DNA of 64,000 nucleotides from Pseudonocardia sp. (GTDB lineage Bacteria > Actinomycetota > Actinomycetes > Mycobacteriales > Pseudonocardiaceae): positions 11,879 through 75,878 of the forward strand of contig JBQTJE010000084.1 in NCBI GenBank assembly GCA_052387455.1, read 5' to 3'. The stretch's first letter is position 1; every line of letters begins with the position of its first letter. The translations under genes and the position numbers were made by a program. The notes beneath the pieces are model-generated. The model had not been told where the DNA came from. It searched no databases and saw only the letters and a program-made list of their open reading frames with translations. Shown piece after piece: positions 51,706-63,750 of this stretch.

Positions 51706-53523
51706 GTGGTGGGACCGATCGACTGGGCGAACGAGTGGATGACCAGCCTGCTGTGGATCGGCGAGGTGTTCGCCTACACGGTGGTCGGCTTCCTGTTCGT
51801 GGCATGGCTGCTGATCCGGCGCACCACCTGGGGGCGCCAGTTCTGGCGGCTCTCGGGCGCGTACTTCATCCCCGAACGCCGCGACTGGCCCAGCTGGCGC
51901 CCGCTGCTGACCGTGGCGTTGCTGCTGCTGCTCACCGTGGCCTCGGTGCGCCTGGACGTCGTGCTGTCGTTCTCGTCCAACGGCCTGTTCACCGCACTGC
52001 AGGAGCTGGACGCCCCGTCGTTCTGGCGGTTCATCGGCATCTTCTGCGTGCTGGCGACGGTGAACGTCGCGCTGGTGCTGATCAGCTTCTACATCGGCCA
52101 GGCCCAGATCATCCACTGGCGGGTGTGGCTCAACGACCACGTGCTCGGCGACTGGCTACGCGGCTCGGCCTACCATCGCGGCCGGTACGTCAGGTCCCCG
52201 GTCGACAACCCCGACCAGCGCATCCAGGAGGACATCACGTCCTTCGCGGGCATCTCGCAGTCGCTCGCGCTGGGCGTGGTGGGCTCGATGGTGGCACTCG
52301 TGTCGTTCTCGGTCATCCTGTGGAACCTGTCCGGGCCGCTGACGGTGTTCGGCACCGAGATCCCGCGGGCGATGGTGTTCCTCGCCTACGTCTACGTGAT
52401 CATCGCCACGGTGATCGCGTTCCGGATCGGCCGGCCGCTGATCCGGCTGAACTTCCTCAACGAGGGCCTCGCGGCGACCTACCGTTACGGCCTGGTCCGG
52501 GTCCGCGACAACTCCGAGAACGTCGCGTTCTACCGCGGTGAGCGGGTGGAGCGCGCCGGGCTGCTCGGGCGGTTCGACCGGCTCATCGACAACACCTGGC
52601 GGATCGTGTTCCGCAGCCTGAAGTTCCAGGGCTGGAACCTCGGCGTCAGCCAGGTCGCGGTGGTCTTCCCGCTGATCATCCAGGCGCCGCGGTTCTTCAG
52701 CCAGCAGATCACCCTCGGCGACGTCACCCAGACCGCCACCGCGTTCGCCCAGGTCCACGCCGCGCTGTCGTTCTTCCGCAACGCCTACGACGACTTCGCC
52801 GGCTACCGCGCCGTCCTCAACCGGCTCACCGGGCTGCTCGACGCCAACGACGAGGCCCGCGACCTGCCGGGCCCCGACACCGAGGACCGTGCCGCCGGCC
52901 TCGGCATCCGCGACCTCACCCTGCGCCTGCCCGACGGCCGCCCGCTGCTCGCCGACCTCGATCTCGACCTGGCGGCGGGCGAGTCGCTGCTGGTCAAGGG
53001 CCCGTCGGGATCGGGCAAGACGACGCTGCTGCGCAGCCTCGCGGGGCTCTGGCCGCACGCCGAGGGCCACATCGCCCGCCCCGGCGAGGAGCATGCCCTG
53101 TTCCTGTCCCAGCAGCCCTACCTTCCGCTCGGCTCGCTGCGCACCGCCATCGCCTACCCGGGCGCCGCCGCCGACCTGTCCGACGACGACGCCCGCGAGA
53201 CCCTGCGGTCGGTGCAGCTCGGTCACCTCGCCGACCGGCTCGACGACGACGCCGACTGGTCGCGCACGCTGTCCCCCGGCGAGCAGCAGCGCCTCGGCTT
53301 CGGCCGGATCCTGCTGGCGGCGCCGTCGGTGGTGTTCCTCGACGAGGCCACCTCCGCCCTCGACGAGGGCATGGAGCACGCCCTGTACAGCCTCGTCCGG
53401 GAGCGGCTCCCGGACGCCACGCTCGTCAGCGTCGGGCACCGCAGCACGCTGGAGGGGCTGCACACCCGCCAGCTCGCCCTGCTGGGCGAGGGCCGCTGGG
53501 AGTCCTCGGCGCTCGTGGGCTAG
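51706..53523 (+). CDS. Fused ABC permease/ATPase, BacA/YddA (Rv1819c-like) family
   Basis: DNPDQRIQEDI, EAA-like RVRDNSENVAFYRG, GPSGSGKTT, LSPGEQQR and FLDEATSALD. Confidence 0.92.
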   Translation: MVGPIDWANEWMTSLLWIGEVFAYTVVGFLFVAWLLIRRTTWGRQFWRLSGAYFIPERRDWPSWRPLLTVALLLLLTVASVRLDVVLSFSSNGLFTALQELDAPSFWRFIGIFCVLATVNVALVLISFYIGQAQIIHWRVWLNDHVLGDWLRGSAYHRGRYVRSPVDNPDQRIQEDITSFAGISQSLALGVVGSMVALVSFSVILWNLSGPLTVFGTEIPRAMVFLAYVYVIIATVIAFRIGRPLIRLNFLNEGLAATYRYGLVRVRDNSENVAFYRGERVERAGLLGRFDRLIDNTWRIVFRSLKFQGWNLGVSQVAVVFPLIIQAPRFFSQQITLGDVTQTATAFAQVHAALSFFRNAYDDFAGYRAVLNRLTGLLDANDEARDLPGPDTEDRAAGLGIRDLTLRLPDGRPLLADLDLDLAAGESLLVKGPSGSGKTTLLRSLAGLWPHAEGHIARPGEEHALFLSQQPYLPLGSLRTAIAYPGAAADLSDDDARETLRSVQLGHLADRLDDDADWSRTLSPGEQQRLGFGRILLAAPSVVFLDEATSALDEGMEHALYSLVRERLPDATLVSVGHRSTLEGLHTRQLALLGEGRWESSALVG

Positions 53524-53669
53524 CCGCGCCCCCCGCGCCCCCCCGCCCCCGTGCACCCCGCGGCGCACTCGGGCGGCGCAGGTGTCGCGCGACGGCACCT
53601 GCGCCGCCCAAGTGCGCGTCGGCCGGGGGCGAGGGGGAGGGGGCGCGCGGGGGGCGCGGGAGGGGGCGC
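53524..53669. terminator. Long bidirectional hairpin with C-rich and G-rich flanks
   Basis: 22-bp stem 53563-53584 / 53596-53617 with one mismatch, extended by complementary C- and G-tracts; between convergent stops. Confidence 0.65.
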
Positions 53670-53670
53670 G

Positions 53671-54288
53671 TCAGCGGGGGGCGGCGGCGCGGCCCTTGGT
53701 GAAGAACGCGGCTACGGCTCTCGCGTCGGGCAGTTCGTCGAGCGGGCGCAGCGCGCCGAACGGGGCGTTCCAGAAGCCGCCCTGCACGGGTGGGGTCCAC
53801 GGCCCGACGTAGGCGTACGGGCGGGGGTGCGCGGCGTCGCCGGGTGACACGCCGTAGTTGACCTCGTCCACGGTGACGCCGACGTCGAAGTGCTCGGGCC
53901 AGAGCACGGGCGTCTGCGACGGGGCGAAGGCGCGCATCGCCGCGTCGCCGCGGGCGAAGGCGTCGGCGATCAGCGCGGCGGCGGCCGGGTCGACGGCGAG
54001 GTCGTGGTCGGCGGGCAGGTCCGGCGAGTCGTGGTAGTTACCGGGCGTGCCCAGCTCCACGCCGGCGGCCGCGGCCAGCGCGCCGAGGGTGCCGGTCAGC
54101 GGCGCCCGCCCGCCGTCCCACACCAGCGACGTGCCCTCCACGCGCAGCGGCACCGCCACCCCGCCGAACCCGCCGGGCATCGCGGCGAGCCGGATCGTGC
54201 CGTGCGCGCGGAACTGCGGCCCGGCGATCACGCTCTCCGCCACGCCGTGCAGGCTCAGCCGCGTCGCGGTCAGGATCTGGTCGTCCAT
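53671..54288 (-). CDS. Conserved hypothetical protein
   Basis: Protein-like composition with LWPEHFD, PYAYVGPW and FWNAPFGA motifs; function not recognised. Confidence 0.75.
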   Translation of the reverse strand: MDDQILTATRLSLHGVAESVIAGPQFRAHGTIRLAAMPGGFGGVAVPLRVEGTSLVWDGGRAPLTGTLGALAAAAGVELGTPGNYHDSPDLPADHDLAVDPAAAALIADAFARGDAAMRAFAPSQTPVLWPEHFDVGVTVDEVNYGVSPGDAAHPRPYAYVGPWTPPVQGGFWNAPFGALRPLDELPDARAVAAFFTKGRAAAPR

Positions 54289-54367
54289 GTCGAACCTCCC
54301 GTGTAACGCGCGGCGCTCGCCGCGGCACTCACCCGCTGCTGGTGTCCGCGAACCCGGGGAGCGTTAC

Positions 54368-55981
54368 ATGCAACCGAACCACGTGCTCGTCGCCCGCTGG
54401 GCCGACCTCCCCGAGGCCGTCCCCACCGCCGCCGAGGCCGACGGGCTGGATCTGGTGCTCGTGCGCCGCGGCCCGGAGGTGTCGGTGTTCGAGGGCCGCT
54501 GCCCGCACCGGGGCGCGCTGCTCGCCGACGGCCGGGTGGAGGGCGAGAACCTCATCTGCGGCGTGCACGGCTGGGACTACCGCCTCGACTCGGGGATCAG
54601 CGCCTACAACCCGGCCGAGCGCCTGCACAAGTTCACCACCCACCGGGTCGGCGACGACGTCGCGATCGACAAGGCCGAGCTCGCCGCCTACCGGGCACTG
54701 CGACCCGAGCGGCCGGTCACGTCCACCTACGACCGGCTCTTCGACGACCCGCACCAGGACACCGCGGAGGAGCCGTTCGTCTCCGAGATCCACGCGCTGG
54801 CCAAGCGGGGCCTCGCCGGCGCGCACGGCAAGGTGGCGGCGATGGGCGTGCCGCGCACGGACCTGCCCACCTGGGACGACCTGCAGATCCTCACCGCGCA
54901 GCTGCACCGCTTCCCGCTGCTCGACGGCGCCCCCGTCGACACGTCGGTCGTCATCGGCCCGGCGGCCGCGAAGCCGCTGCGCCTCGACATCCCGGTGTTC
55001 GTCTCCGACATGAGCTTCGGCGCGTTGTCGCTGGAGGCGAAGGTGGCGCTGGCCCGCGGCGCCGAGGGCGCGGGCACGGCGATCGCGTCCGGTGAGGGCG
55101 GGATGCTGCCCGAGGAGCAGGCGGAGTGTTCCCGCTACCTCTACGAGCTGGCGTCGGGCCGGTTCGGCTGGGACGAGATGCACCTCGACCGGGTGCAGGC
55201 GCTGCACCTCAAGCTCGGCCAGGGCGCCAAGACCGGCACCGGTGGGCACCTGCCGGGCAACAAGGTCGTCGGCCGGATCGCGGAGGTCCGCGGCCTGCCC
55301 GAGGGCACGTCCGCCGTGTCGCCGCCGCGGTTCGTCGACTGGCGCACGCTGCTCGACGCCCGCGCGCTCGTCGACCGGATCCGGGAGCGCTCGGCCGGAA
55401 TCCCGGTGGGGGTGAAGATGTCCGCGCAGCACGTGGAGAGCGATCTCGACGCGGCCCTGGACATCGGCATCGACTACGTCATCCTCGACGGCCGCGGCGG
55501 CGGCACCGGGGCCGCCCCGACGATCTTCCGGGACACCATCAGCGTGCCGACGATGGCCGCGCTCGCCCGGGCACGGCGCCACCTCGACCTGGCCGGCGCC
55601 CGCGACGTCACGCTGGTGGCGACCGGCGGGTTCCGCCGCGCGCAGGACATGGTCAAGGCGCTCGCGCTGGGCGCCGACGCGATCGCGGTGTCGAACGTGG
55701 CGCTGCAGGCCATCGGCTGCGTCGGGATGCGCGCGTGCCACACCGACAACTGCCCGATGGGCATCGCCACCCAGAAGCCGCACCTGCGGGCCCGGCTGCC
55801 CGTGCAGCGCGCGGCCGAGCAGCTCACCCGCTACCTCGGCGCGATCACCGAACTGATGGTGGTGCTGGCGCGGGCGTGCGGGCACGACTCGCTGTCGCAC
55901 TTCACCCCGCGCGACCTGACGTCGTGGAAACGCGAGGTCGCGGAGCTCGTCGGCGTGAGCTACGCGGGGGTGCAGCGCTAG
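54368..55981 (+). CDS. Rieske [2Fe-2S] domain fused to an FMN-binding glutamate-synthase-like domain
   Basis: CPHRG..CGVHGW; SDMSFGALS, SGEGG, KLGQGAKTG.GG.L, DGRGGGTGA and CVGMRACHTDNCP; no glutamine amidotransferase domain. Confidence 0.92.
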   Translation: MQPNHVLVARWADLPEAVPTAAEADGLDLVLVRRGPEVSVFEGRCPHRGALLADGRVEGENLICGVHGWDYRLDSGISAYNPAERLHKFTTHRVGDDVAIDKAELAAYRALRPERPVTSTYDRLFDDPHQDTAEEPFVSEIHALAKRGLAGAHGKVAAMGVPRTDLPTWDDLQILTAQLHRFPLLDGAPVDTSVVIGPAAAKPLRLDIPVFVSDMSFGALSLEAKVALARGAEGAGTAIASGEGGMLPEEQAECSRYLYELASGRFGWDEMHLDRVQALHLKLGQGAKTGTGGHLPGNKVVGRIAEVRGLPEGTSAVSPPRFVDWRTLLDARALVDRIRERSAGIPVGVKMSAQHVESDLDAALDIGIDYVILDGRGGGTGAAPTIFRDTISVPTMAALARARRHLDLAGARDVTLVATGGFRRAQDMVKALALGADAIAVSNVALQAIGCVGMRACHTDNCPMGIATQKPHLRARLPVQRAAEQLTRYLGAITELMVVLARACGHDSLSHFTPRDLTSWKREVAELVGVSYAGVQR

Positions 55982-55996
55982 AGTACGCTTCCGGGT

Positions 55997-56239
55997 ATGC
56001 GCACCACCGAACGCATCACGGTGACGTTGCCGACCGAGCTGGCCGAGAAGCTGCGGCAGCGGGTCAGCTCCGGCCGGGCGGAGAGCGTGTCCGGGTTGCT
56101 CGCCGAGATCGCCGACGAGTGGTTCCGCGAGGAGGATCTGGCCACGTGGCTCAAGGACATGGCCGAGGGTGCCGAGCCGATCACCGACGCGGATCGCGAG
56201 CGGGTCGACGAGCTGATGCGGATCGCGCGTGGCGAGTGA
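55997..56239 (+). CDS. Putative RHH antitoxin
   Basis: RITVTLP beta-strand plus helices, acidic tail; overlaps the PIN gene; TACGCT -10-like hexamer 7 nt upstream. Confidence 0.75.
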   Translation: MRTTERITVTLPTELAEKLRQRVSSGRAESVSGLLAEIADEWFREEDLATWLKDMAEGAEPITDADRERVDELMRIARGE

Positions 56240-56621
56240 CCACGCGCCCATCGTCATGGACGCCGGTGGGCTCATCTCGATCGAGCGGCGTGCGAGCGTC
56301 ATGCGGCTTGCCGTCGATCGAGCCGCGGCGGCAGGCGCCCGCGTCGTGATCCCGGCTCCCGTCCTGGCGCAGGTGTGGCGCGGCGGCGCGCGGCAGGCGT
56401 TGCTGGGACGGTTCCTGCGCCTGCCCTTCGTCGAGGTCGATCTCCTCTCGACGCACCTGTGGCGCGCAGCGGGTGAGCTGTGCGGCGACTCGGGGACCTC
56501 GGACGTGGTCGACGCCGCGGTCGTCGTCTGTGCCCGGGAGCGCGGCGCACACGCCGTCGTCACCTCCGATCCCGACGACCTGCGCCGGCTCGACCTCGGC
56601 CTGGCCTACTGGACCGTGTAA
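56229..56621 (+). CDS. vapC: PIN-domain (VapC-like) toxin
   Basis: VMDAG, VVIPAPVLAQVW, DVVDAAVV and VVTSDPDD acidic PIN pattern. Confidence 0.82.
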   Translation: MASDHAPIVMDAGGLISIERRASVMRLAVDRAAAAGARVVIPAPVLAQVWRGGARQALLGRFLRLPFVEVDLLSTHLWRAAGELCGDSGTSDVVDAAVVVCARERGAHAVVTSDPDDLRRLDLGLAYWTV

Positions 56622-56652
56622 CGCCCGCCCGGGTCGGCGACACCGAACCTGC

Positions 56653-58593
56653 ATGACCACATGGCACCGCGTGGACGGCGAGCTGGACGAGGGGCGCGTC
56701 CGCACCGTCGTGATCAACGGCCGGACGATCGCGCTCACCCGCTGCGGCGGGCGCTACGGCGCGCTGGACAACCGCTGCCCGCACCAGGGCGGCCCGCTGG
56801 GCGAGGGGTCGATCGAGAACGGGTGGCTGCGCTGCCCGTGGCACGGCTACGACTACTCCCCGCTCACCGGGCGCCCGCCGGAGGGCTTCTCCGACGCGCC
56901 GGACGCCTATCCCGTGCAGGAGCGCGCCGACGGCGTCTACGTCGCGGTGCCCGACCTGCCGCCGCGGGCCCGGAGCGTCTCCGACGTGCTCGTCGAGACG
57001 CTCGTCGCGTGGGGCGTGGACACCGTGTTCGGCATGGTCGGGCACTCGAACCTCGGGTTCGCCGATGCGTTGAGGTGCGCAGAGCAAAGGGGCGAGCTGC
57101 GGTTCGTCGGGATCCGGCACGAGGGCGCGGCGGCGTTCGCGGCCTCGGCGTACGGCAAGCTCACCGGCCGGCCGGCGGCGTGCTTCGCGATCGCCGGGCC
57201 GGGATCGACGAACCTGCTCACCGGGCTCTACGACGCCAAGCTCGACGGCGCCCCGGTGCTCGCGATCTCCGGGCAGGTGCCGTCGAAGGTCCTGGGGCGC
57301 GGCGCGTTCCAGGACGTCGACCTGTCGGCGGTCTTCCGGGACGTCGCGCTCTCGACGGTCACGGTGCACGCCGGGTCCGACCACGCCGAGCTGGCGGCCA
57401 CCGCCGTCAAGCACGCCGTCGACGGGCGCGGCGTGGCGCACCTGGTGCTGCCCGACGAGGTGCAGGACCTGCCGTCGGACGCCGCGGCCGGGTCGCCGGC
57501 CGGACGGCGGGCGGATCCGGCGGTGGCACCGTCGGCGCCCGCGCTGGCGGCGGCCCTGGCGAAGTTGCGGGCGGCGCGGCGGCCGGTGGTCGTCGCCGGG
57601 CAGGGCGCGCGGGGGGCCGCCGCCGAGCTGCACGCGCTGGCCGAACGGCTCGGCGCGCCCGTCCTGACCACGTTCCGCGCGAAGGGCCTCGTCCCCGACA
57701 CGCACCCGCTCGGCGCCGGCGTGCTCGGCCGCTCCGGCACGCCCGTGGCGTCGTGGCTGATGAACGAGGCCGACCTGCTGCTCGTCGTCGGCGCCTCGTT
57801 CGCCAACCACACCGGCATCGCGCCGTACAAGCCGATCGTGCAGGTCGACGACACGCCGTCGGCGATCGGGCGGTTCCACGGCGTCGATGTCGGGGTGCTC
57901 GGGGATGCGGCGGTGACGCTGCGGGCGCTGCTCGGCGGTCTCGGGGCCTGCGCCGCCACGGACCAGCGGCCCGACGTCGCCGTCCGGCAGGAGATCTGGC
58001 GGGCGGAGAAGGCGCGACGTGCCCGCGACGACCGCGGCCGGGGCGTCGCGTCGGCGGCGGTGTTCGCGGCGCTGTCCGCCCACTGCCCGGCCGACGCCGT
58101 GATCGCCGTGGACGTCGGCAACCACGCGTACTCGTTCGGCCGGTACTTCGCGAGCGCCGGGCAGCCGGTGCTGATGTCGGGCTACCTCGGGTCGATCGGG
58201 TTCGGCTACCCGGCCGCGATCGGCGCCTGGGCCGCCCTGCATCCGGCGCGCGACCCGAGGGCGGACCGTCCGGTCGTGGCCGTCACCGGCGACGGCGGGT
58301 TCGGGCAGTACCTCGCCGAGCTGACGACGGCGGTCAAGTACGGCATCGGGGTCAAGCACGTGCTCCTCGACAACGGCGCGCTCGGCAAGATCTCGAAGGA
58401 ACAGCTCGCGGGCCGCCTGCCGGTCTGGCAGACGTCGCTGGTCAACCCCGACTTCGCCGAGTACGCGCGGCTGTGCGGCGCCACCGGCATCCCCGTGCAC
58501 CGCGCCGACGAGCTGGACGAGGCCATGAAAGCGCTCTTCGCCGCCGACGGGCCCGCGCTGCTGCACGTGCACGCCGACCCCGAGCTGGTGTGA
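56653..58593 (+). CDS. Rieske [2Fe-2S] domain fused to a ThDP-dependent enzyme (pyruvate oxidase/acetolactate synthase family)
   Basis: CPHQGGPL..CPWHG; RHEGAAAF, GPGSTN and ThDP motif GDGG..N. Confidence 0.93.
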   Translation: MTTWHRVDGELDEGRVRTVVINGRTIALTRCGGRYGALDNRCPHQGGPLGEGSIENGWLRCPWHGYDYSPLTGRPPEGFSDAPDAYPVQERADGVYVAVPDLPPRARSVSDVLVETLVAWGVDTVFGMVGHSNLGFADALRCAEQRGELRFVGIRHEGAAAFAASAYGKLTGRPAACFAIAGPGSTNLLTGLYDAKLDGAPVLAISGQVPSKVLGRGAFQDVDLSAVFRDVALSTVTVHAGSDHAELAATAVKHAVDGRGVAHLVLPDEVQDLPSDAAAGSPAGRRADPAVAPSAPALAAALAKLRAARRPVVVAGQGARGAAAELHALAERLGAPVLTTFRAKGLVPDTHPLGAGVLGRSGTPVASWLMNEADLLLVVGASFANHTGIAPYKPIVQVDDTPSAIGRFHGVDVGVLGDAAVTLRALLGGLGACAATDQRPDVAVRQEIWRAEKARRARDDRGRGVASAAVFAALSAHCPADAVIAVDVGNHAYSFGRYFASAGQPVLMSGYLGSIGFGYPAAIGAWAALHPARDPRADRPVVAVTGDGGFGQYLAELTTAVKYGIGVKHVLLDNGALGKISKEQLAGRLPVWQTSLVNPDFAEYARLCGATGIPVHRADELDEAMKALFAADGPALLHVHADPELV

Positions 58594-58594
58594 C

Positions 58595-59779
58595 GTGTCC
58601 GCGTCACTGGTGATCGTCCTCGCGGTCGCCGCCGCCGTGCCCCTGCTGCTGGGGCTCGCGCCGCGACTGCTGCTGCCCGGCGCGCTGGTGGAGATCGTCG
58701 CCGGGATCGTGCTGGGGCCCTCGGTACTCGGCTGGGTCGAGCCGGACGCCACCGTGTCGGCACTCGCCCTGCTGGGCCTGTCGTTCCTGCTGTTCCTCGC
58801 CGGGTGGGAGGTGGACCTGCGACGGTTCCGCGGGTCGCTCGGCCGGCGGGTGGCGGCGTCGCTGCTGGTGTCGGTGCTGGTCGCCGCGCTGGTCGCGGGC
58901 GTGCTCGTGCTGCTCGGCGTCCGCGGCGCGGCCCTGCTCGGGGTGGCGCTGCTCGCGACGTCGCTCGGCCTGGTCGTGCCCGTCCTCGCCGACGCCGGGC
59001 GCCTCGCCGACCCGGTGGGCCGGCTGACGGTCGCGGGCGCCTCGGCCGGCGAGGTGGCGGCGGTGGTGCTGCTCTCGGTCGGCCTGGCCGGGGCGGACAC
59101 CCCGCTGGCCGGGCGGTTACTGCTGCTGGGCCTGCTGCTCGTCGCGCTGGGCGCGATCGCGCTGGCCGTGCTCGGCGTCGAGCACTCGGCACGGCTCACC
59201 GCGCTCGTGGGACGCCTGGCCGACACCAGCGCCCAGATCCGCGTGCGGCTCACCGTGCTGCTGGTCGCCGGGCTCGCGTTCGCGGCGGCCGCGCTGGGCT
59301 TCGAGGCGATCCTCGGGGCGTTCCTCGCGGGCGTGCTCGTGCGCGCGCTCGACCCGGAACCGGAGCGTTCCCACCCGCACTACCCCGTCAAGCTCGAGGC
59401 CGTCGGCTACGGGCTGCTCGTCCCGGTCTTCTTCGTCACCAGCGGGCTCACCCTCGACCTGCGCGGACTCGTCGAGCACCCGTCCGCGCTGCTGCTCGTT
59501 CCCGCGTTCCTGGTCGCGTTGCTGCTGGTGCGCGGCGTGCCGGCGCTCGTGTTCCGGCGCGAGCTGGACCGTCGCGGCGTCGCCGTCGTCGGGCTACTCC
59601 AGGCGACGTCGTTGCCGTTCCTGCTGGCCGCCACCGAGATCGGGGAGCGGATGGGGCTGCTCGACCCGGCCGTCGGCGCCGGGCTGGTCGCCGCCGGGCT
59701 GGCGTCGGTGCTCGTGTTCCCGGCACTGGCGCTGGGGCTGCTCGCCCGGGCCCCGCGCCAGGCGACCGTCCCGTCGTGA
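58595..59779 (+). CDS. Cation:proton antiporter (Na+/H+ exchanger family)
   Basis: About 12 transmembrane segments, LLFLAGWEVD, ATSLG, GAFLAG and PVFFVTSG. Confidence 0.9.
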   Translation: MSASLVIVLAVAAAVPLLLGLAPRLLLPGALVEIVAGIVLGPSVLGWVEPDATVSALALLGLSFLLFLAGWEVDLRRFRGSLGRRVAASLLVSVLVAALVAGVLVLLGVRGAALLGVALLATSLGLVVPVLADAGRLADPVGRLTVAGASAGEVAAVVLLSVGLAGADTPLAGRLLLLGLLLVALGAIALAVLGVEHSARLTALVGRLADTSAQIRVRLTVLLVAGLAFAAAALGFEAILGAFLAGVLVRALDPEPERSHPHYPVKLEAVGYGLLVPVFFVTSGLTLDLRGLVEHPSALLLVPAFLVALLLVRGVPALVFRRELDRRGVAVVGLLQATSLPFLLAATEIGERMGLLDPAVGAGLVAAGLASVLVFPALALGLLARAPRQATVPS

Positions 59780-59926
59780 TCACCGTCCCGGGACCGGCCG
59801 CGGTGATCACCGTTTCGGGACGGGGACCGGCGTGATCACTGTTTCGGGACGGGGGACCGTCGTGATCACTGTTTCGGGACGGGGGACCGTCGTGGTCACG
59901 GTTCGCCGTCCCGAAACGGTGATCAC
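59776..59926. repeat. 30-bp tandem GTGATCACTGTTTCGGGACGGGGGACCGTC array closed by an inverted copy
   Basis: 59831-59860 and 59861-59890 are identical; two degenerate copies upstream; 59908-59926 is the exact reverse complement of 59803-59821. Confidence 0.9.
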
Positions 59927-59989
59927 GGCCCGGCGGTGGTGGCCGGCGGCGCGGTTCCGGCCACCACCGACCGCCGGTACGGTTCCCCG

Positions 59990-60592
59990 GTGCTGCCGGA
60001 GGACACCGACCTCGTGGCCCGGTTGCGCGGCGGGGACGAGGCGGCCTTCGTCACCGTCGTGCGCGCCTGGTCACCGGCGATGCTCCGCGTCGCGCGCGGC
60101 TACGTCCGCACGCACGCGTCCGCCGAGGAGGTCGTGCAGGAGGCGTGGCTGGCCGTCGTCCGCGGCATCGACGGCTTCGCCGGCCGGGCGGCCCTGCGCA
60201 GCTGGGTGCTCACCATCGTCGCCAACCTCGCCCGGCGCCGCGCCCGGGCCGAGGCGCGGATCATGACCGCCGAGTTCCAGCCGGCCGTCGACCCCGACCG
60301 GTTCCGCGGCGACGACGACCCGACCTACCCCGGGCACTGGCGCGAGGGGGCGGCCCCGCAGGCGTGGGGACCCGAGCCCGCGCTGCTGGCGGCCGAGTTC
60401 CGTGGTCTGCTGGAGACCGCGCTCGCCGGGTTGCCCCACCGGCAGCGCAGCGTCGTCGAGCTGCGCGACGTCCACGGGCTGGATGCGGAGGAGGTGTGCA
60501 CGCTGCTCGACCTGACCCCGGCCAACCAGCGGGTGCTGCTGCACCGCGGCCGCTCGCGGCTGCGCGCGGTCCTGGAGACGGTGGTCGTGTGA
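59990..60592 (+). CDS. ECF RNA polymerase sigma factor
   Basis: AEEVVQEAWL, LRSWVLTIVAN region 2; LPHRQRSVVELRD..QRVLLHRGRSRL region 4. Confidence 0.95.
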   Translation: MLPEDTDLVARLRGGDEAAFVTVVRAWSPAMLRVARGYVRTHASAEEVVQEAWLAVVRGIDGFAGRAALRSWVLTIVANLARRRARAEARIMTAEFQPAVDPDRFRGDDDPTYPGHWREGAAPQAWGPEPALLAAEFRGLLETALAGLPHRQRSVVELRDVHGLDAEEVCTLLDLTPANQRVLLHRGRSRLRAVLETVVV

Positions 60593-60837
60593 GGCAGCCG
60601 CGTGACATGGCGTGCCGCGAGCTCGTCGAGCTCGTCACCGACTACCTCGAAGGCGCGCTGCCGCCCGACGAGGTCGCCGCCGTCGAGGCGCACCTCGACG
60701 AGTGCGGCGGCTGCCGCGAGTACCTCACCCAGATGCGCGCCACCGTGTCAGCCACGGGCGCCGTGCGCGTCGACACCCTGCCCGACGCCATCGTCGACGA
60801 CCTGCTCCGGGCGTTCCGCCGGCACCGCAGCGCCTAG
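60589..60837 (+). CDS. Soluble zinc-finger (zf-HC2/ZAS) anti-sigma factor
   Basis: MACRELVELVTDYLEG..HLDECGGC; GTGA overlap with the sigma stop; no transmembrane segment. Confidence 0.92.
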   Translation: MRQPRDMACRELVELVTDYLEGALPPDEVAAVEAHLDECGGCREYLTQMRATVSATGAVRVDTLPDAIVDDLLRAFRRHRSA

Positions 60838-60838
60838 C

Positions 60839-61732
60839 TCACCCGGGAGGCGCACCCAGCGCGGCCCGGACCTCGGCCGCCGTCGCGACCCGCCCGCCGG
60901 CGTCCTCGATCCGGCGAGCCGCGTCGCGCACCAGCTCCACGTTGGTCTCGGTGGTGCCGAACGGCGCGTCCTCCAGGCCCACCCGGACGTGCCCACCCAG
61001 CTCCACCGCGTCCGGGATCAGCGGGCGGACGTCCACGGCCAGGCCGGCGATCATCCACGCGCTGCCCGGCGCGGCGTCGTGCAGGAGCGTGCGGTGGGCG
61101 TCCAGCGCGTAGCGCCGCGGCGGGAACCCGAAGTGGAAACCCTCGGTGAACATGAAGCGGTAGACCGGCGCCGGCAGGTCGGGCCGGGCCGCGGCGAGCG
61201 CCGCGCCGAACCGGGTGAAGCCGGGCTCGTAGCAGGCATACGCCGGGCGCACCCCGTGCGCGGCCACGATGCCCAGGCCGGTGCGGACGTGCGCGTCGGG
61301 GTTGAGGTAGACGAAGCCGTCCCGGCCTGCCGCGAGATCGTCCAGGTGGGTGAGGGTGGTCGTCCCCGGGTCGACCGCCGCCCACTCCAGCAGGCCCCGG
61401 CGGCACAGCTCGGCGACGGCGGCGAAACGCTCCTCGGGCGGCATCGGCTCCGGGGCGTCCGGGCTCCCGGCCAGCGGCAGCGTCGGGTACACGATGGCGT
61501 CGACCTCGGCGCGGATGCCCTCGATGATCGGCTGGTAGATGTCGGGATCGTCGCGCTGGCGGCCGGTGGCGACGTCGTAGGGGTGAACGTGCACGATCGC
61601 CGCTCCCGCCCGCGCGCAGGCGATGCCGTCAGCCACGATCTCGGCCACGCTGATCGGGATCCCCGGCTGCCGGTCCCGCGACCACGGGCCGTTCACCGCC
61701 GCCTCGAGCCACACCGCCCGCGCCTGCGCCAT
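60839..61732 (-). CDS. 3-keto-5-aminohexanoate cleavage (BKACE/DUF849) family enzyme
   Basis: LEAAVNG, GAAIVHVH and GGHVRVGLED. Confidence 0.9.
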   Translation of the reverse strand: MAQARAVWLEAAVNGPWSRDRQPGIPISVAEIVADGIACARAGAAIVHVHPYDVATGRQRDDPDIYQPIIEGIRAEVDAIVYPTLPLAGSPDAPEPMPPEERFAAVAELCRRGLLEWAAVDPGTTTLTHLDDLAAGRDGFVYLNPDAHVRTGLGIVAAHGVRPAYACYEPGFTRFGAALAAARPDLPAPVYRFMFTEGFHFGFPPRRYALDAHRTLLHDAAPGSAWMIAGLAVDVRPLIPDAVELGGHVRVGLEDAPFGTTETNVELVRDAARRIEDAGGRVATAAEVRAALGAPPG

Positions 61733-61747
61733 GCCGCCATCCTCCCG

Positions 61748-61857
61748 CGAGTCCGCGTTCCCGACACGGCGAGTCCGCGTTCCCGACACGGCGAGTCCGC
61801 GTTTCCGACACGGCGAGTCCGCGTTTCCGACACGGCGAGTCCGCGTTCTCGACACGG
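61748..61857. repeat. 22-bp tandem repeat GCGAGTCCGCGTT(C/T)CCGACACG (5 copies)
   Basis: Seen directly; no spacers. Confidence 0.92.
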
Positions 61858-62730
61858 CTACGGCCGGAGTGCCGCCAGCCGGTCGAGCTCGCGCAGCGTC
61901 GCGTCCGTGCCGCGACCGTCGGACCCCACGTCCTCCGCCGCGCCACCCAGCCCGTGGTCGGGCAGCTCGAACAGCACCCGGTCCACACCGGCGGCGGCGT
62001 ACGACTCCAGCGCCGCAGGCGTCGACACCGCGCCGTAGACGGTGACGGGCAGGTGCCCGCGCCCGGCATCGGCCGCCCGGCTACGCAGCTCCGCGACCCG
62101 GCCGGCGAAGGCGTCGAACTGGTCGAGCCGCACCCGCAGCGGGATCCAGCCGTCGCCGTGCGAGAGCACCCGGTCGAGCACGGTCGGCCCGCCGCCACCG
62201 ATGAGCACCGGCGGCACCCGCACCGGCTTCGGCCACGACCACATCGGTCCGAAGTCGACGAACCGGCCGTGGAACTCGGCCTCGTCGCTGGTCCAGATCG
62301 CCCGCATGGCCGCGACGTGTTCCAGCATCCGCGCGGTGCGGTGGGTCGCGGCGCCGTGGTGCGCGGCCTCCTCGACGTTCCAGCCCGGCCCCACGCCGAA
62401 CTCGAACCGTCCGCCGGCGAGCCGGTCGACGCTGGCGACGGCCTTGGCCTGGACGATCGGGTCGTGCTGCGGCACCAGCGACACCGCCGTGCCCAGCGCG
62501 ATCCGGTCGGTGACGACGGCCATGGCTCCGAGCGCGACCAGCGGGTCGAAGGTGTGGGCGTAGCGCTTCGGCAGTTCGGCGCCACCGGGCCAGGGCGTCC
62601 GCCGGGACGCGGGGATGTGGGTGTGCTCGGTGAGGAACAGCGCGTCGAACCCGCGCTCCTCGACGGCGCGGGCGAGGGTGAGCCCGTCGATGCCGTAGTC
62701 GGTCAGGAACGTCACGACGCCGTGCTGCAT
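61858..62730 (-). CDS. LLM-class probable F420-dependent oxidoreductase
   Basis: LFLTEHTHIP, DPLVAL, LGTAV, GVGPGWNVEE and GGGG. Confidence 0.92.
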   Translation of the reverse strand: MQHGVVTFLTDYGIDGLTLARAVEERGFDALFLTEHTHIPASRRTPWPGGAELPKRYAHTFDPLVALGAMAVVTDRIALGTAVSLVPQHDPIVQAKAVASVDRLAGGRFEFGVGPGWNVEEAAHHGAATHRTARMLEHVAAMRAIWTSDEAEFHGRFVDFGPMWSWPKPVRVPPVLIGGGGPTVLDRVLSHGDGWIPLRVRLDQFDAFAGRVAELRSRAADAGRGHLPVTVYGAVSTPAALESYAAAGVDRVLFELPDHGLGGAAEDVGSDGRGTDATLRELDRLAALRP

Positions 62731-62749
62731 GGCCCGATCATGCCGAACC

Positions 62750-62805
62750 GCCCGACTCGCGCTGTCGTGTGGCCCGACTCGCGCGGTCGTAGAGCCCGAC
62801 TCGCA
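62750..62805. repeat. Degenerate 22-bp CCCGACTCGC repeat (about 2.5 copies)
   Basis: CCCGACTCGC recurs at a 22-bp period (62751, 62773, 62795) in the divergent gap. Confidence 0.6.
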
Positions 62806-62868
62806 GGGGGTACGGTCACTCGTCATGCGCGAGCTGCCGCCGTCCGGTGTCGACCACGAGCGGCACCC

Positions 62869-63597
62869 ATGACCGATGGTCCCCGCGGCTGGGGCGCGCC
62901 GTTGCACGCCCGCGTCCTCGACGTCACCGCCGCCGGCCCCGGCACGGCGCTGCTCGATCTCGGCTGCGGGCCCGGGGTGTTCTCCCGTGCAGCCGTCGAC
63001 CGGGGCGCCCTCGTCACCGGCGTCGACCACGACCCGCAGGCGGTGCGCCACGCTGCGGCAGAGGTTCCGGACGTGACGTTCCAGGTCGGCGACGCCCACG
63101 AGCTCGACCTGCGCGATGGCTCCTTCGACGTGGTCGCGGCCGTCCAGCTGCTCACGCATGTCGCGAACCCGCTGCGGGTGCTGCGTGAGATGGGTCGCGT
63201 CGCCCGACCGGGAGGCGTCGTCGCCGTGACGGTGTGGGGCCGGGAAGCCGAGTGCGACGTCCGCGCGTTCGGCGAGGCCCTCGCGCCGTGGCTTCCCCCG
63301 CGCGCGCCGCACGGCCCGCCGCCGCTCACCGATCCCGAGCGCCTCTGCGAGATCGTGACGTTGGCCGGGCTCGAGGTCGACCAGGTCGACGAGGTCGGTT
63401 GCCCGTTCGACTACGCCGACGCCGACGCCGTGATCGAGCCGCTGTTCGCCTCGGGGCTGGCCAGAGCAGTCGGCAGGCACGCCCATCCGGCCGCCGTCCG
63501 CGAGGCCGTGCTGGCGCGGCTGGAACCGCTGCGCACACCGGGCGGCGGCTACCGGCTGCACAACCTCTTCCGCGTCCTCACCGCCCGCACTCGCTGA
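62869..63597 (+). CDS. Class I SAM-dependent methyltransferase
   Basis: LLDLGCGPG motif I, VGDAHEL and FDVV; start uncertain. Confidence 0.9.
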   Translation: MTDGPRGWGAPLHARVLDVTAAGPGTALLDLGCGPGVFSRAAVDRGALVTGVDHDPQAVRHAAAEVPDVTFQVGDAHELDLRDGSFDVVAAVQLLTHVANPLRVLREMGRVARPGGVVAVTVWGREAECDVRAFGEALAPWLPPRAPHGPPPLTDPERLCEIVTLAGLEVDQVDEVGCPFDYADADAVIEPLFASGLARAVGRHAHPAAVREAVLARLEPLRTPGGGYRLHNLFRVLTARTR

Positions 63598-63610
63598 CCG
63601 ACCATCCACC

Positions 63611-63675
63611 GCGTCGAGCACGCGGACTCGCCGTGCCGAGCACGCGGACTCGCCGTGCCGAGATTGCGGACTCGC
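63611..63675. repeat. 22-bp repeat of the 61.75-kb family in inverted orientation (about 3 copies)
   Basis: CACGCGGACTCGCCGTGCCGAG units; the reverse complement shares CACGGCGAGTCCGCGT with the 61748 array. Confidence 0.85.
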
Positions 63676-63750
63676 AGACGGAACGGGCCAACGGGCGAAC
63701 GGCGCGCCCCGGTCGGACGCGCCGTTCGGCACCACAGGGGAGCGGACGCG

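What the first reader, a model, noticed from the sequence alone, without database searches (positions are those of the whole stretch)
54368..59779. Two different enzymes carrying N-terminal Rieske domains in one cluster: candidate uncharacterised redox pathway
Seen: a Rieske-FMN/[3Fe-4S] glutamate-synthase-like protein lacking the amidotransferase domain, and a Rieske-ThDP pyruvate-oxidase-like protein, co-oriented and followed 1 nt later by a cation:proton antiporter. Established: ThDP oxidases of this family oxidatively decarboxylate 2-oxoacids, and the GltB FMN domain reduces imines using Fe-S-delivered electrons. Neither normally has a Rieske ferredoxin fused. Inference: coupled 2-oxoacid oxidation and FMN-dependent reduction with built-in electron carriers; substrate unknown.
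Basis: partly seen in the sequence, partly recalled or inferred. Interest (0 to 1): 0.62.

Follow-up and report, generated by a model that had tools for sequence, protein, structure and literature searches.

The report
Paired Rieske-tagged flavoenzymes in stress-sigma locus
A Pseudonocardia-like bacterium carries two unstudied enzymes, one like the reducing core of glutamate synthase and one like pyruvate oxidase, each fused to an iron-sulfur (Rieske) electron carrier; they belong to a gene set conserved across many phyla that also includes a proton antiporter, a protein of unknown function and its own stress sigma factor.

Summary
Gene A (54368-55981) is Rieske + GltS-type FMN/[3Fe-4S] domain. 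Gene B (56653-58593) is Rieske + PoxB-like ThDP enzyme. A vapBC toxin-antitoxin pair (55997-56621) is inserted between A and B in this genome only. An ECF sigma factor and a small RsrA-like zinc anti-sigma lie downstream (59936-60837). A diverged DUF5996 gene lies upstream (53671-54288, minus strand).

A and B are strongly linked. In 401 Actinomycetes genomes, 8 of 10 with A also have B (0.4 expected), always adjacent. Of 48 loci from many phyla holding both, B lies directly downstream in 34. The same six families recur in Alphaproteobacteria.

A motif, TGTAACGC-N14-GRCAC, occurs only three times in the 4.76-Mb genome. Each copy faces A, B or the DUF5996 gene.

Each enzyme also occurs without the other, so the coupling is not obligate.

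Most likely this is a sigma-controlled redox module in which B takes electrons from a 2-oxoacid and A, or other sinks, uses them. Substrates and direction are inferred, not shown. No publication turned up. The scan has noted this pair before on other DNA.

The parts
53671..54288 (-). Diverged, shortened DUF5996-family protein ('UNK', 205 aa), divergent from A
   Evidence: A homolog lies next to A and/or B in 29 of 97 loci. It sits between A and B in L049, L075, L078 and L084. The L075 copy scores 114.8 bits on PF19459. Invariant residues are WPxHFD...GxSPGD...PYxY...W. The AF2 model has pLDDT 90.3 and no PDB fold match at E<0.7.
54302..54328 (+). Promoter-like motif TGTAACGC-N14-GGCAC facing A (39 nt before A's ATG)
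   Evidence: One of only 3 copies in the 4.76-Mb genome; reversed control gives 0. Conserved in relatives L011-L017, with a GACTG downstream element in L100/L101.
54342..54368 (-). Same motif (TGTAACGC-N14-GACAC) on the minus strand, facing the DUF5996 gene; overlaps A's ATG
   Evidence: It lies 53 nt before the DUF5996 start.
54368..55981 (+). Gene A: Rieske [2Fe-2S] + GltS-type FMN/[3Fe-4S] domain protein (537 aa)
55997..56239 (+). vapB-like RHH antitoxin (80 aa), part of a lineage-specific insertion into the A-B junction
   Evidence: RHH_5 match, E=1.5e-4 (21.9 bits, under the 26-bit cut-off). Absent from all related loci.
56229..56621 (+). vapC-like PIN toxin (130 aa), same insertion
   Evidence: PF01850, 33.2 bits.
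56617..56643 (+). Third motif copy (TGTAACGC-N14-GACAC) facing B, 9 nt before B's ATG; overlaps the vapC stop codon
   Evidence: Similar elements lie upstream of B in genomes that have B but not A (L095, L096).
56653..58593 (+). Gene B: Rieske [2Fe-2S] + PoxB/POX-like ThDP (probably FAD) enzyme (646 aa), lacking the PoxB C-terminal membrane anchor
58595..59779 (+). CPA2-type cation:proton antiporter, membrane domain only (394 aa)
   Evidence: PF00999, 183 bits; TIGR00932, 118 bits (under the 238.3-bit cut-off). Conserved next to B in actinobacterial loci. An unrelated PF00999 subfamily lies directly upstream of A in 17 proteobacterial and other loci.
59936..60592 (+). ECF sigma factor (218 aa)
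   Evidence: Sigma70_r2 and r4_2; TIGR02937, 75.5 bits. A homolog is present in 25 of 97 loci, including Alphaproteobacteria.
60589..60837 (+). Soluble zinc-finger (ZAS) anti-sigma factor (82 aa); C9...H35xxxC39xxC42; overlaps the sigma stop by 4 nt
   Evidence: zf-HC2 PF13490, 48 bits. Conserved directly after the ECF gene in 11 of the 16 copies examined; detected by tblastn in 18 of 97 loci. Ligand positions.

Best explanation
The locus is one copy of a widespread, uncharacterised redox gene set. Its core is two flavoenzymes, each with an N-terminal low-potential-type Rieske [2Fe-2S] domain. Proposed mechanism (inferred): B, a PoxB-like ThDP/FAD enzyme without the PoxB membrane anchor, oxidatively decarboxylates pyruvate or a similar 2-oxoacid. 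It hands the two electrons one at a time from flavin to its own Rieske cluster. A accepts electrons at its Rieske cluster and passes them through the [3Fe-4S] cluster to FMN. There an imino- or 2-oxo-dicarboxylate is reduced, probably 2-oxoglutarate plus ammonia to glutamate, without glutamine or NAD(P)H. This resembles the reductase, Rieske ferredoxin and terminal enzyme chains of Rieske oxygenases. The module is probably transcribed from dedicated promoters read by the adjacent ECF sigma factor, which is held by a small RsrA-like zinc anti-sigma. That would make it a response to a cytoplasmic (possibly thiol or redox) stress. A DUF5996 protein and a cation:proton antiporter are conserved accessory parts with unknown roles. 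Shown here: domain architecture, ligand motifs, gene linkage, the conserved six-family set, and the locus-specific motif. Inferred: cofactor content, substrates, direction of flow, the sigma-promoter assignment and the inducing signal.
For: Architecture and motifs. The Rieske and 3Fe-4S ligands and GQGAKTGTGGHLPG are conserved in at least 98% of 82 A orthologs (one motif position 90-98%). Linkage: 8 of 10 A-bearing genomes among 401 also have B, against 0.4 expected if independent, and the genes are adjacent in all 8. B is directly downstream of A in 34 of 48 loci across Actinomycetota, Proteobacteria, Planctomycetota, Gemmatimonadota and Nitrospirales. Overlapping stop and start codons. Pairwise distances of A and B correlate (Mantel r=0.72, 0 of 2000 permutations). 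Carrier role of the N-terminal module: an A homolog (63% identical in the FMN part) carries two CDGSH [2Fe-2S] motifs in place of the Rieske domain. B aligns with E. coli PoxB up to residue 526 of 572 and ends 6 residues later, so the membrane-binding tail is missing. Conserved set: window order DUF5996-, A+, B+, CPA+, ECF+, ZAS+; Hoeflea and Nitratireductor order ZAS-, ECF-, CPA+, A+, B+, DUF5996+. Two PF00999 subfamilies with no detectable similarity to each other (E=0.2) sit at the locus in different phyla. Regulation: the strict motif has 3 of 3 genomic copies in this locus, each facing a start codon 9-53 nt away. The anti-sigma has the C-x25-H-x3-C-x2-C pattern.
Against: B occurs without A in 8 of 16 sampled genomes, including a complete single-contig genome. 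A occurs without B in a complete Streptomyces-like genome, and another genome has only a truncated B. These loci still carry DUF5996, antiporter or ECF/ZAS genes. About 40% of A loci from other phyla show no B within 10 kb. In nine proteobacterial and other loci a third Rieske protein, fused to a MsrQ-like di-haem membrane domain, accompanies A; it lies between A and B only in L032/L033. This fits a shared acceptor as well as a B-to-A wire. FAD binding by B and the substrate of A cannot be read from sequence. A differs from canonical GltS at two invariant active-site-loop positions (PGEGGQ becomes TGTGGH). The exact motif is not specific in more distant genomes.
Confidence: 0.42

Rival explanations
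1. Parallel inputs. A and B are both dehydrogenases: A oxidises glutamate or another amino or imino acid, and B oxidises a 2-oxoacid. Their Rieske domains plug into a common acceptor. That acceptor would be the MsrQ-like Rieske/di-haem membrane protein where present, or DUF5996 or another protein in Actinobacteria. The antiporter would compensate for the protons, or the ammonium, left behind.
For: A-only and B-only genomes keep the same accessory genes. DUF5996 accompanies either enzyme and sits between them in four loci. A Ferric_reduct + Rieske protein with six predicted membrane helices read by eye, plus a 253-aa membrane-anchored partner, recurs in 9 loci. The Rieske domains of A, B and that protein are 30-43% identical. 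A weak fourth motif hit precedes a membrane-anchored DM13 'electron transfer' domain gene.
Against: In every characterised glutamate synthase the [3Fe-4S]/FMN domain works reductively (own knowledge). No membrane electron conduit lies in the actinobacterial loci. DUF5996 has no Cys and no recognisable cofactor motif. The DM13 hit is within background expectation, and no DM13 homolog is found in other loci.
Confidence: 0.25
2. Co-regulated but electronically independent enzymes. Each Rieske domain is served by generic cellular reductases or acceptors, and adjacency reflects a shared pathway or shared stress regulon only.
For: Each gene occurs alone in some genomes. Flanking genes outside the six-family set vary widely and are often other oxidoreductases.
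Against: Translational coupling and conserved A-then-B order across phyla. Correlated divergence of A and B. It would be odd for two unrelated enzymes to acquire the same rare N-terminal carrier independently and then sit side by side.
Confidence: 0.15
3. The Rieske modules are regulatory or sensor domains, NirD-like or redox/NO/O2-sensing, rather than electron wires.
For: Weak NirD and Rieske_2 matches. The locus appears to be under a redox-type anti-sigma.
Against: The full CxH...CxxH ligand sets are conserved in 82 A orthologs. Replacement by CDGSH [2Fe-2S] modules in one relative points to a cluster-dependent carrier role. In A the module sits upstream of a [3Fe-4S] entry point that needs an external donor in Fd-GltS (own knowledge).
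Confidence: 0.06
4. Ordinary annotation-level functions: A is the MgsC subunit of N-methylglutamate synthase, or a glutamate synthase fragment, and B is a plain pyruvate oxidase or acetolactate synthase.
For: Some database sources name homologs of A 'methylamine---glutamate N-methyltransferase subunit C' and homologs of B 'pyruvate oxidase'.
Against: The genome's only GXGXG domain is in the canonical 1529-aa GltB, so there is no MgsB partner. All NCBIfam equivalog cut-offs are missed by wide margins: 138 against 1047 for A, 377 against 742 for B. Neither family normally has a Rieske domain.
Confidence: 0.03

Closest known systems
Ferredoxin-dependent glutamate synthase / GltB alpha-subunit FMN ('synthase') domain (PDB 7MFM, 1EA0, 1LLW)
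   Same: A has the same TIM-barrel FMN domain (PF01645, 307 bits). It has the same CX5CX4CP [3Fe-4S] triad. The QGAK lysine and the downstream Arg, which bind 2-oxoglutarate in GltS (numbering from my own knowledge), are conserved. Electrons enter from an external Fe-S carrier.
   Different: A has no amidotransferase, central or GXGXG domains. An N-terminal Rieske domain is fused in place of a free ferredoxin or GltD. Invariant TGTGGH replaces PGEGGQ in the active-site loop. The best PDB match is E=4.6e-44 over the FMN domain only.
E. coli PoxB (pyruvate:ubiquinone oxidoreductase, PDB 3EY9/3EYA), C. glutamicum PQO and L. plantarum POX
   Same: B has the three-domain ThDP fold, the cofactor-activating Glu (RHE), the GDG...N diphosphate motif and a GxGxxGA motif in the middle domain. 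PoxB is the best PDB match (236 bits).
   Different: B has an N-terminal Rieske domain of about 100 aa and lacks the C-terminal lipid-binding peptide. The acceptor is therefore probably the on-board cluster rather than quinone or O2. B scores below all NCBIfam equivalog cut-offs.
Three-component Rieske oxygenase electron chains (flavoprotein reductase, Rieske-type ferredoxin such as BphF or TmoC, then terminal enzyme)
   Same: Both use a low-potential-type Rieske ferredoxin module (no extra disulfide Cys) between a flavin and a terminal redox enzyme. Rieske-to-Rieske transfer has precedent. The Rieske domain of A matches TmoC, HcaC and AndAb weakly.
   Different: Here the carrier is fused to both ends of the presumed chain. 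The electron source would be a 2-oxoacid rather than NADH. The sink is an FMN/[3Fe-4S] enzyme, not a non-haem iron oxygenase.
SigR-RsrA type ECF sigma / soluble ZAS anti-sigma switches
   Same: An ECF sigma is followed by a small soluble zf-HC2 protein with C-x25-H-x3-C-x2-C. This is the same ligand spacing as RsrA C11/H37/C41/C44 (own knowledge). The locus appears auto-regulated.
   Different: The sigma is a different ECF group (best TIGR02943-like, below cut-off). The candidate promoter is TGTAAC...GRCAC rather than GGAAT...GTT. The inducing signal is unknown.
MsrQ/YedZ and NOX/FRE-type ferric-reductase di-haem membrane proteins
   Same: The proteobacterial variant of the cluster encodes a PF01794 six-helix membrane domain.
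   Different: It is fused to a C-terminal Rieske domain that is probably cytoplasmic. No such gene is in this window.

Membership tests
Glutamate synthase large subunit (GltB / Fd-GltS) | N-terminal Ntn-type glutamine amidotransferase domain | tested here: not met
   No such Pfam or NCBIfam match in A. Residues 1-100 are a Rieske domain.
Glutamate synthase large subunit (GltB / Fd-GltS) | FMN-binding synthase domain with the [3Fe-4S] Cys triad | tested here: met
   PF01645, 307 bits. C451-x5-C457-x4-C462-P, aligned to the same motif in 7MFM.
Glutamate synthase large subunit (GltB / Fd-GltS) | C-terminal GXGXG beta-helix domain and full-length equivalog score | tested here: not met
   A has no PF01493 match. 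The only genomic copy is in the canonical GltB on contig C73. NF008730 scores 138 bits against a cut-off of 1047.
N-methylglutamate synthase (MgsABC), subunit C | Separate MgsA (amidotransferase-like) and MgsB (GXGXG) partners encoded alongside | tested here: not met
   No stand-alone GXGXG gene in the genome, and none in the neighbourhoods examined.
Pyruvate oxidase / pyruvate:quinone oxidoreductase (POX, PoxB, PQO) | Three ThDP-enzyme domains, activating Glu and GDG-X-N diphosphate motif | tested here: met
   TPP_enzyme_N/M/C at 120, 127 and 111 bits. RHE155-157 and GDG546...N574.
Pyruvate oxidase / pyruvate:quinone oxidoreductase (POX, PoxB, PQO) | FAD bound in the middle domain | tested here: inconclusive
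   The middle domain is full length and GQGARGA aligns with PoxB GSGCAGA. Sequence alone cannot separate FAD-binding members from FAD-free ones.
Pyruvate oxidase / pyruvate:quinone oxidoreductase (POX, PoxB, PQO) | C-terminal membrane-binding peptide (PoxB) and equivalog-level score | tested here: not met
   The alignment stops at PoxB residue 526 of 572 and B ends 6 residues later. Best NCBIfam hit is 377.5 bits against a cut-off of 742.
Rieske-type [2Fe-2S] ferredoxin domain | CxH...CxxH ligand boxes and Pfam score above cut-off | tested here: met
   PF00355 scores 52.7 bits (A) and 53.0 bits (B) against a cut-off of 20.3. Ligand positions. In the 82-sequence A alignment three of the four ligands are conserved in at least 98% of orthologs and the fourth (C64) in 70-90%. 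Actual cluster content cannot be tested here.
ECF sigma / ZAS anti-sigma pair | Sigma regions 2 and 4 only; adjacent zf-HC2 protein with HxxxCxxC | tested here: met
   Gene overlap and conservation. Redox sensitivity cannot be tested here.
DUF5996 (PF19459) | Pfam score above the 25-bit cut-off | tested here: inconclusive
   The window protein has no Pfam hit. It aligns with homologs that do: L041 scores 25.0 bits and L075 scores 114.8 bits. All share invariant motifs. It is a shortened, diverged member.
VapBC type II toxin-antitoxin | RHH or other antitoxin gene overlapping a PIN-domain toxin gene | tested here: met
   RHH_5 match E=1.5e-4. PIN 33.2 bits. The genes overlap by 11 nt.

The most novel reading that the evidence does not exclude
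A stress-gated electron circuit independent of NAD(P)H and quinone. When the zinc anti-sigma releases its ECF sigma, a pyruvate-driven Rieske 'wire' (B) powers a glutamine-independent glutamate-forming reductase (A). In some phyla it also powers a Rieske/di-haem membrane conduit that exports electrons to the cell envelope. DUF5996 would be a new adaptor or catalytic partner, and the antiporter would balance protons, K+ or NH4+. This would be a new route linking central 2-oxoacid metabolism to nitrogen assimilation or envelope redox repair under stress.
Probability: 0.15. Interest if true: 0.8.

Novelty: new variant of a known kind. Interest (0 to 1): 0.6.

Why it matters
Both enzyme cores belong to textbook families: glutamate synthase and pyruvate oxidase. 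These Rieske-fused forms occur in hundreds of species across at least ten phyla at 60% identity or more, and I found no study of them. They come with a dedicated sigma/anti-sigma switch, a DUF family with more than 4000 representative sequences, and antiporters recruited independently from two subfamilies. If B really reduces A, bacteria would have a way to make glutamate, or reduce a related imine, directly from 2-oxoacid oxidation without NAD(P)H, glutamine or free ferredoxin. If both enzymes feed a common acceptor, it is a new entry point for electrons. Either way the locus is compact and testable: two soluble enzymes, one DUF protein and one sigma factor. It would give a function to DUF5996 and to an uncharacterised ECF group.

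Tried and rejected
- **Literature:** six full-text searches found no paper on these fusions or on DUF5996. These combined Rieske, glutamate-synthase-like, pyruvate oxidase/PoxB, ECF and DUF5996 terms. The ECF re-classification paper (PMC7826278) does not mention Rieske, glutamate synthase, antiporter or thiamine, and no supplements are held.
- **Standard signals:** the sigma-70 promoter and intrinsic terminator scan of 53500-61000 found nothing.
- **Motif in other genomes:** the relaxed motif in five more distant genomes with A and/or B gave hits at control level, none near the genes. The exact motif holds only for this genome and close relatives. The relaxed pattern has a background of 0-10 hits per genome, so the fourth hit, before a DM13 gene, is weak. 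No DM13 homolog occurs in the other loci.
- **Ergothioneine lead:** an earlier scan note said the promoter is shared with ergothioneine genes. The egtD operon here (contig C37) has no such motif.
- **DUF5996 fold:** Foldseek of the confident model against the PDB gave no match better than E=0.7.
- **DUF5996 fusions:** the profile search found only single-domain proteins of 247-296 aa among the best 150.
- **Apparent fusion in L084:** DUF5996 and B read in one frame in L084. This is probably an indel artefact, because the Illumina-assembled L075 has two separate genes.
- **First promoter reading:** I first read the motif as -35 GTGYC / -10 CGTTAC. I rejected that because it puts the start of transcription inside A and points away from B. 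The opposite orientation faces all three genes with sensible leaders.
- **MgsC annotation:** rejected.


Full report
**What is in the window**

The region has about 74% G+C, and coding frames are identified by GC3 above 0.9. On the plus strand lie six genes.
- Gene A, 54368-55981 (537 aa).
- A small RHH gene, 55997-56239.
- A PIN gene, 56229-56621.
- Gene B, 56653-58593 (646 aa).
- A CPA2-type Na_H_Exchanger gene, 58595-59779.
- An ECF sigma gene, 59936-60592, followed by an 82-aa zf-HC2 anti-sigma gene, 60589-60837.

A 205-aa gene, 53671-54288, lies on the minus strand and diverges from A. Homolog names place the organism in or near Pseudonocardia. The assembly has 277 contigs, 4.76 Mb in total, and is 94% complete.

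**The two fusions**

*Gene A.*
- It has a Rieske domain (PF00355, 52.7 bits) with ligands C45, H47, C64 and H67.
- It also has the glutamate-synthase FMN domain (PF01645, 307 bits) with the [3Fe-4S] triad C451-x5-C457-x4-C462-P.
- It has no amidotransferase or GXGXG domain.
- Its best solved relatives are GltS large subunits, matched over the FMN domain only (7MFM, E=4.6e-44).
- Across 82 orthologs the Rieske and 3Fe-4S ligands and the loop GQGAKTGTGGHLPG are almost all conserved in at least 98% of sequences (two of these positions fall below that).
- By my own recollection of GltS numbering, the QGAK lysine and the Arg in AEVRG are the 2-oxoglutarate-binding K972 and R992. Canonical PGEGGQ is replaced by TGTGGH.

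*Gene B.*
- It has a Rieske domain (53 bits; C42, H44, C61, H64).
- It has a full three-domain ThDP enzyme with RHE155-157 and GDG546...N574.
- Its best solved relative is E. coli PoxB (236 bits). The alignment ends at PoxB residue 526 of 572, and B stops 6 residues later, so the lipid-binding tail is absent.
- No NCBIfam equivalog cut-off is reached for A or B.
- Neither Rieske domain has the extra disulfide cysteines of the high-potential bc1 type. This points to ferredoxin-like low potential (my own knowledge).

**Is the pairing more than chance?**

In an even sample of 401 genomes of the class:
- A orthologs occur in 10 genomes and B orthologs in 16.
- Both occur in 8, against 0.4 expected if independent.
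- In all 8 the genes are adjacent, in the order A then B.

A scan of one genome per GTDB species found at least 577 stretches encoding A relatives. The best 80 are at least 60% identical over the full length. They come from Actinomycetota, Alpha-, Beta- and Gammaproteobacteria, Gemmatimonadota, Planctomycetota, Myxococcota, Poribacteria, Nitrospirales, Bryobacterales and one Halobacteria MAG.

Among 48 loci that hold both genes:
- B is directly downstream of A in 34.
- Inserted genes separate them in 7.
- They are divergent in 5.
- The order is B then A in 2.

Stop and start codons overlap in several loci. Pairwise distances of A and B correlate (Mantel r=0.72, 0 of 2000 permutations). This measure is confounded by shared phylogeny.

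**The pair is not obligate**
- A complete single-contig genome (G331) has B without A.
- A complete Streptomyces-like genome (G237) has A without B, and its relative G284 keeps only the C-terminal 365 residues of B.
- About 40% of A loci from other phyla have no B within 10 kb. Some of these are limited by contig ends.

**A larger conserved set**

I clustered all ORFs of 83 related loci and this window and then ran a family-by-family tblastn. Four further families recur with A and/or B.

*1. A cation:proton antiporter.*
- The CPA2-like form follows B in actinobacterial loci.
- A different PF00999 subfamily (K+/H+ antiporter-like, about 420 aa) sits directly upstream of A in 17 loci, mostly proteobacterial, plus one Polyangiales and one Halobacteria MAG.
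- The two forms have no detectable similarity to each other (E=0.2).
- So the antiporter function seems to have been recruited twice.

*2. A DUF5996-family protein.*
- The window copy is short and diverged and has no Pfam hit.
- It aligns with homologs that do score on PF19459, for example L075 at 114.8 bits. They share invariant WPxHFD...GxSPGD...PYxY...W.
- It accompanies A-only and B-only loci. In L049, L075, L078 and L084 it lies between A and B.
- Its AF2 model is confident (pLDDT 90.3, pTM 0.88) but has no PDB fold match (best E=0.7).
- A profile search finds 4136 representative sequences. The best 150 are all single-domain proteins.

*3. An ECF sigma factor, in 25 of 97 loci.*

*4. A small soluble ZAS anti-sigma directly after the sigma, overlapping its stop codon.*
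- It has a conserved Cys about 26 residues before HxxxCxxC.
- This is the ligand spacing of RsrA (my own knowledge).

Hoeflea and Nitratireductor (Alphaproteobacteria) carry ZAS-, ECF-, CPA+, A+, B+, DUF5996+. These are the same six families as in this window.

Nine proteobacterial and other loci carry two further genes:
- a Ferric_reduct (MsrQ-like) membrane protein with a C-terminal Rieske domain;
- a 253-aa membrane-anchored protein.

These two genes lie between A and B only in L032 and L033.

**Evidence on the role of the N-terminal module**

In genome G144 the A homolog is 63% identical over the FMN part. It carries two CDGSH [2Fe-2S] motifs (PF09360, 61 bits) where the Rieske domain would be. 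Replacing one small [2Fe-2S] module with another argues that this position serves as an electron carrier to or from the [3Fe-4S]/FMN core.

**Regulatory signal**

The A/DUF5996 intergenic region holds two inverted copies of TGTAACGC-N14-GRCAC. A third copy lies 9 nt before B's ATG and overlaps the vapC stop codon.
- The strict pattern occurs exactly three times in the 4.76-Mb genome, all here. The reversed control gives 0.
- Read as -35 TGTAAC / -10 GRCAC, each copy faces a start codon 39, 53 or 9 nt away: A, DUF5996 and B.
- The element is conserved in Pseudonocardia-like relatives and a Propionibacteriaceae MAG.
- It also lies upstream of B in two genomes that lack A.
- Streptomyces-like genomes have it with GACTG as the downstream element.
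- A TGTAAC element also lies in the ECF/antiporter intergenic region of the two Alphaproteobacteria.
- An AAC-containing -35 is typical of ECF promoters (my own knowledge). I therefore assign the motif to the adjacent sigma, but this is inference.
- The motif is not specific in more distant genomes.
- One weak extra hit precedes a DM13-domain membrane protein on contig C44. It is within background expectation.

**The vapBC insertion**

Close relatives have A's TGA overlapping B's ATG. Only this genome has the 671-nt insert with an RHH/PIN pair. The third motif copy, at the right end of the insert, would give B, the antiporter, the sigma and the anti-sigma their own promoter after the split. 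Its first 17 bases match the promoter-like element facing A in P. halophobica (L013) better than this window's own copy. How it arose is unresolved.

**Mechanism**

My preferred reading (confidence about 0.4) has four steps.
1. B oxidatively decarboxylates a 2-oxoacid and reduces its flavin.
2. Electrons leave one at a time through B's Rieske cluster.
3. A receives them at its Rieske cluster and passes them via [3Fe-4S] to FMN.
4. FMN reduces an imino- or 2-oxo-dicarboxylate, probably forming glutamate.

This mirrors Fd-GltS and the reductase / Rieske-ferredoxin chains of oxygenases. It fits the tight A-B coupling.

The main rival (about 0.25) is that both enzymes are dehydrogenases feeding a shared acceptor. 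Three observations favour it: the A-only and B-only loci, the consistent presence of DUF5996, and the membrane Rieske-cytochrome variant.

Lesser rivals:
- co-regulated but independent enzymes (about 0.15);
- sensor-type Rieske domains (about 0.06);
- the database names (about 0.03). The MgsC name is contradicted by the lack of any stand-alone GXGXG partner.

The roles of DUF5996 and the antiporter are unknown.

**Novelty**

No paper on either fusion, on the pair or on DUF5996 was found in six searches.

Earlier notes of this scan describe the same pair on other genomes, one of them with an ECF/ZAS pair. I reached the same architecture independently. The link to ergothioneine genes reported in that note is not seen in this genome.

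The parts are known domains in a new, conserved arrangement, so I class this as a new variant of a known kind, with interest 0.6.

Noticed in passing
window 55982-56652: A vapBC-like toxin-antitoxin pair (RHH antitoxin 55997-56239, PIN toxin 56229-56621) is inserted exactly at the A/B junction. In close relatives that junction is an ATGA stop/start overlap. The insertion is unique to this genome among about 97 loci examined.
   Followed up: partly
window 56617-56643: The third copy of the locus-specific motif overlaps the vapC stop codon. Its first 17 bases match the promoter-like element facing A in Pseudonocardia halophobica (L013) better than the window's own copy. The origin of this copy is unexplained; recombination is one possibility.
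   Followed up: partly
own genome, contig C44:41236-41780 (minus strand), outside the window: A relaxed form of the motif (GTAACGCC...GACAC) lies 9 nt before a 169-aa membrane-anchored protein with a DM13 'electron transfer' domain (PF10517, 86.6 bits). It may belong to the same regulon, but the hit is within the chance background.
   Followed up: partly
L102 5995-7530 (minus strand; genome G144): An A-family protein in which two CDGSH-type [2Fe-2S] motifs replace the Rieske domain. It is followed by a protein with a PEP-utilising mobile domain. There is no B ortholog in that genome.
   Followed up: partly
L032 11970-13783 (also L033, L038, L039, L063, L069, L070, L072, L087): A Ferric_reduct (MsrQ-like) six-helix membrane protein with a C-terminal Rieske domain, plus a 253-aa membrane-anchored Cys-rich protein with no family match. 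Both accompany A in some Proteobacteria and other phyla; they lie between A and B only in L032/L033.
   Followed up: partly
L084 11626-12870: DUF5996 and the Rieske N-terminus of B read as one open frame in a Burkholderiales MAG. B itself is frameshifted there, and the Illumina-assembled L075 has separate genes, so this is probably an assembly indel rather than a real fusion.
   Followed up: yes
L101 7574-8641 (genome G284) and L100 (genome G237): Two Streptomyces-like genomes show decay of B. One keeps only the C-terminal 365 residues after A, and the other has lost B entirely. Both retain ECF/ZAS, A and DUF5996.
   Followed up: partly
class-wide sample, e.g. G185:C1:4722781-4723971: A Rieske-less paralog family of A, about 40% identical and matching only residues from about 135 to 535, is present in some 18 of 401 Actinomycetes genomes. 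This genome has none.
   Followed up: no
window 60839-63735 (minus strand): A BKACE (beta-keto acid cleavage enzyme) gene and a 625-aa protein with a luciferase-like monooxygenase domain abut the anti-sigma gene. They are not conserved with the cluster.
   Followed up: no
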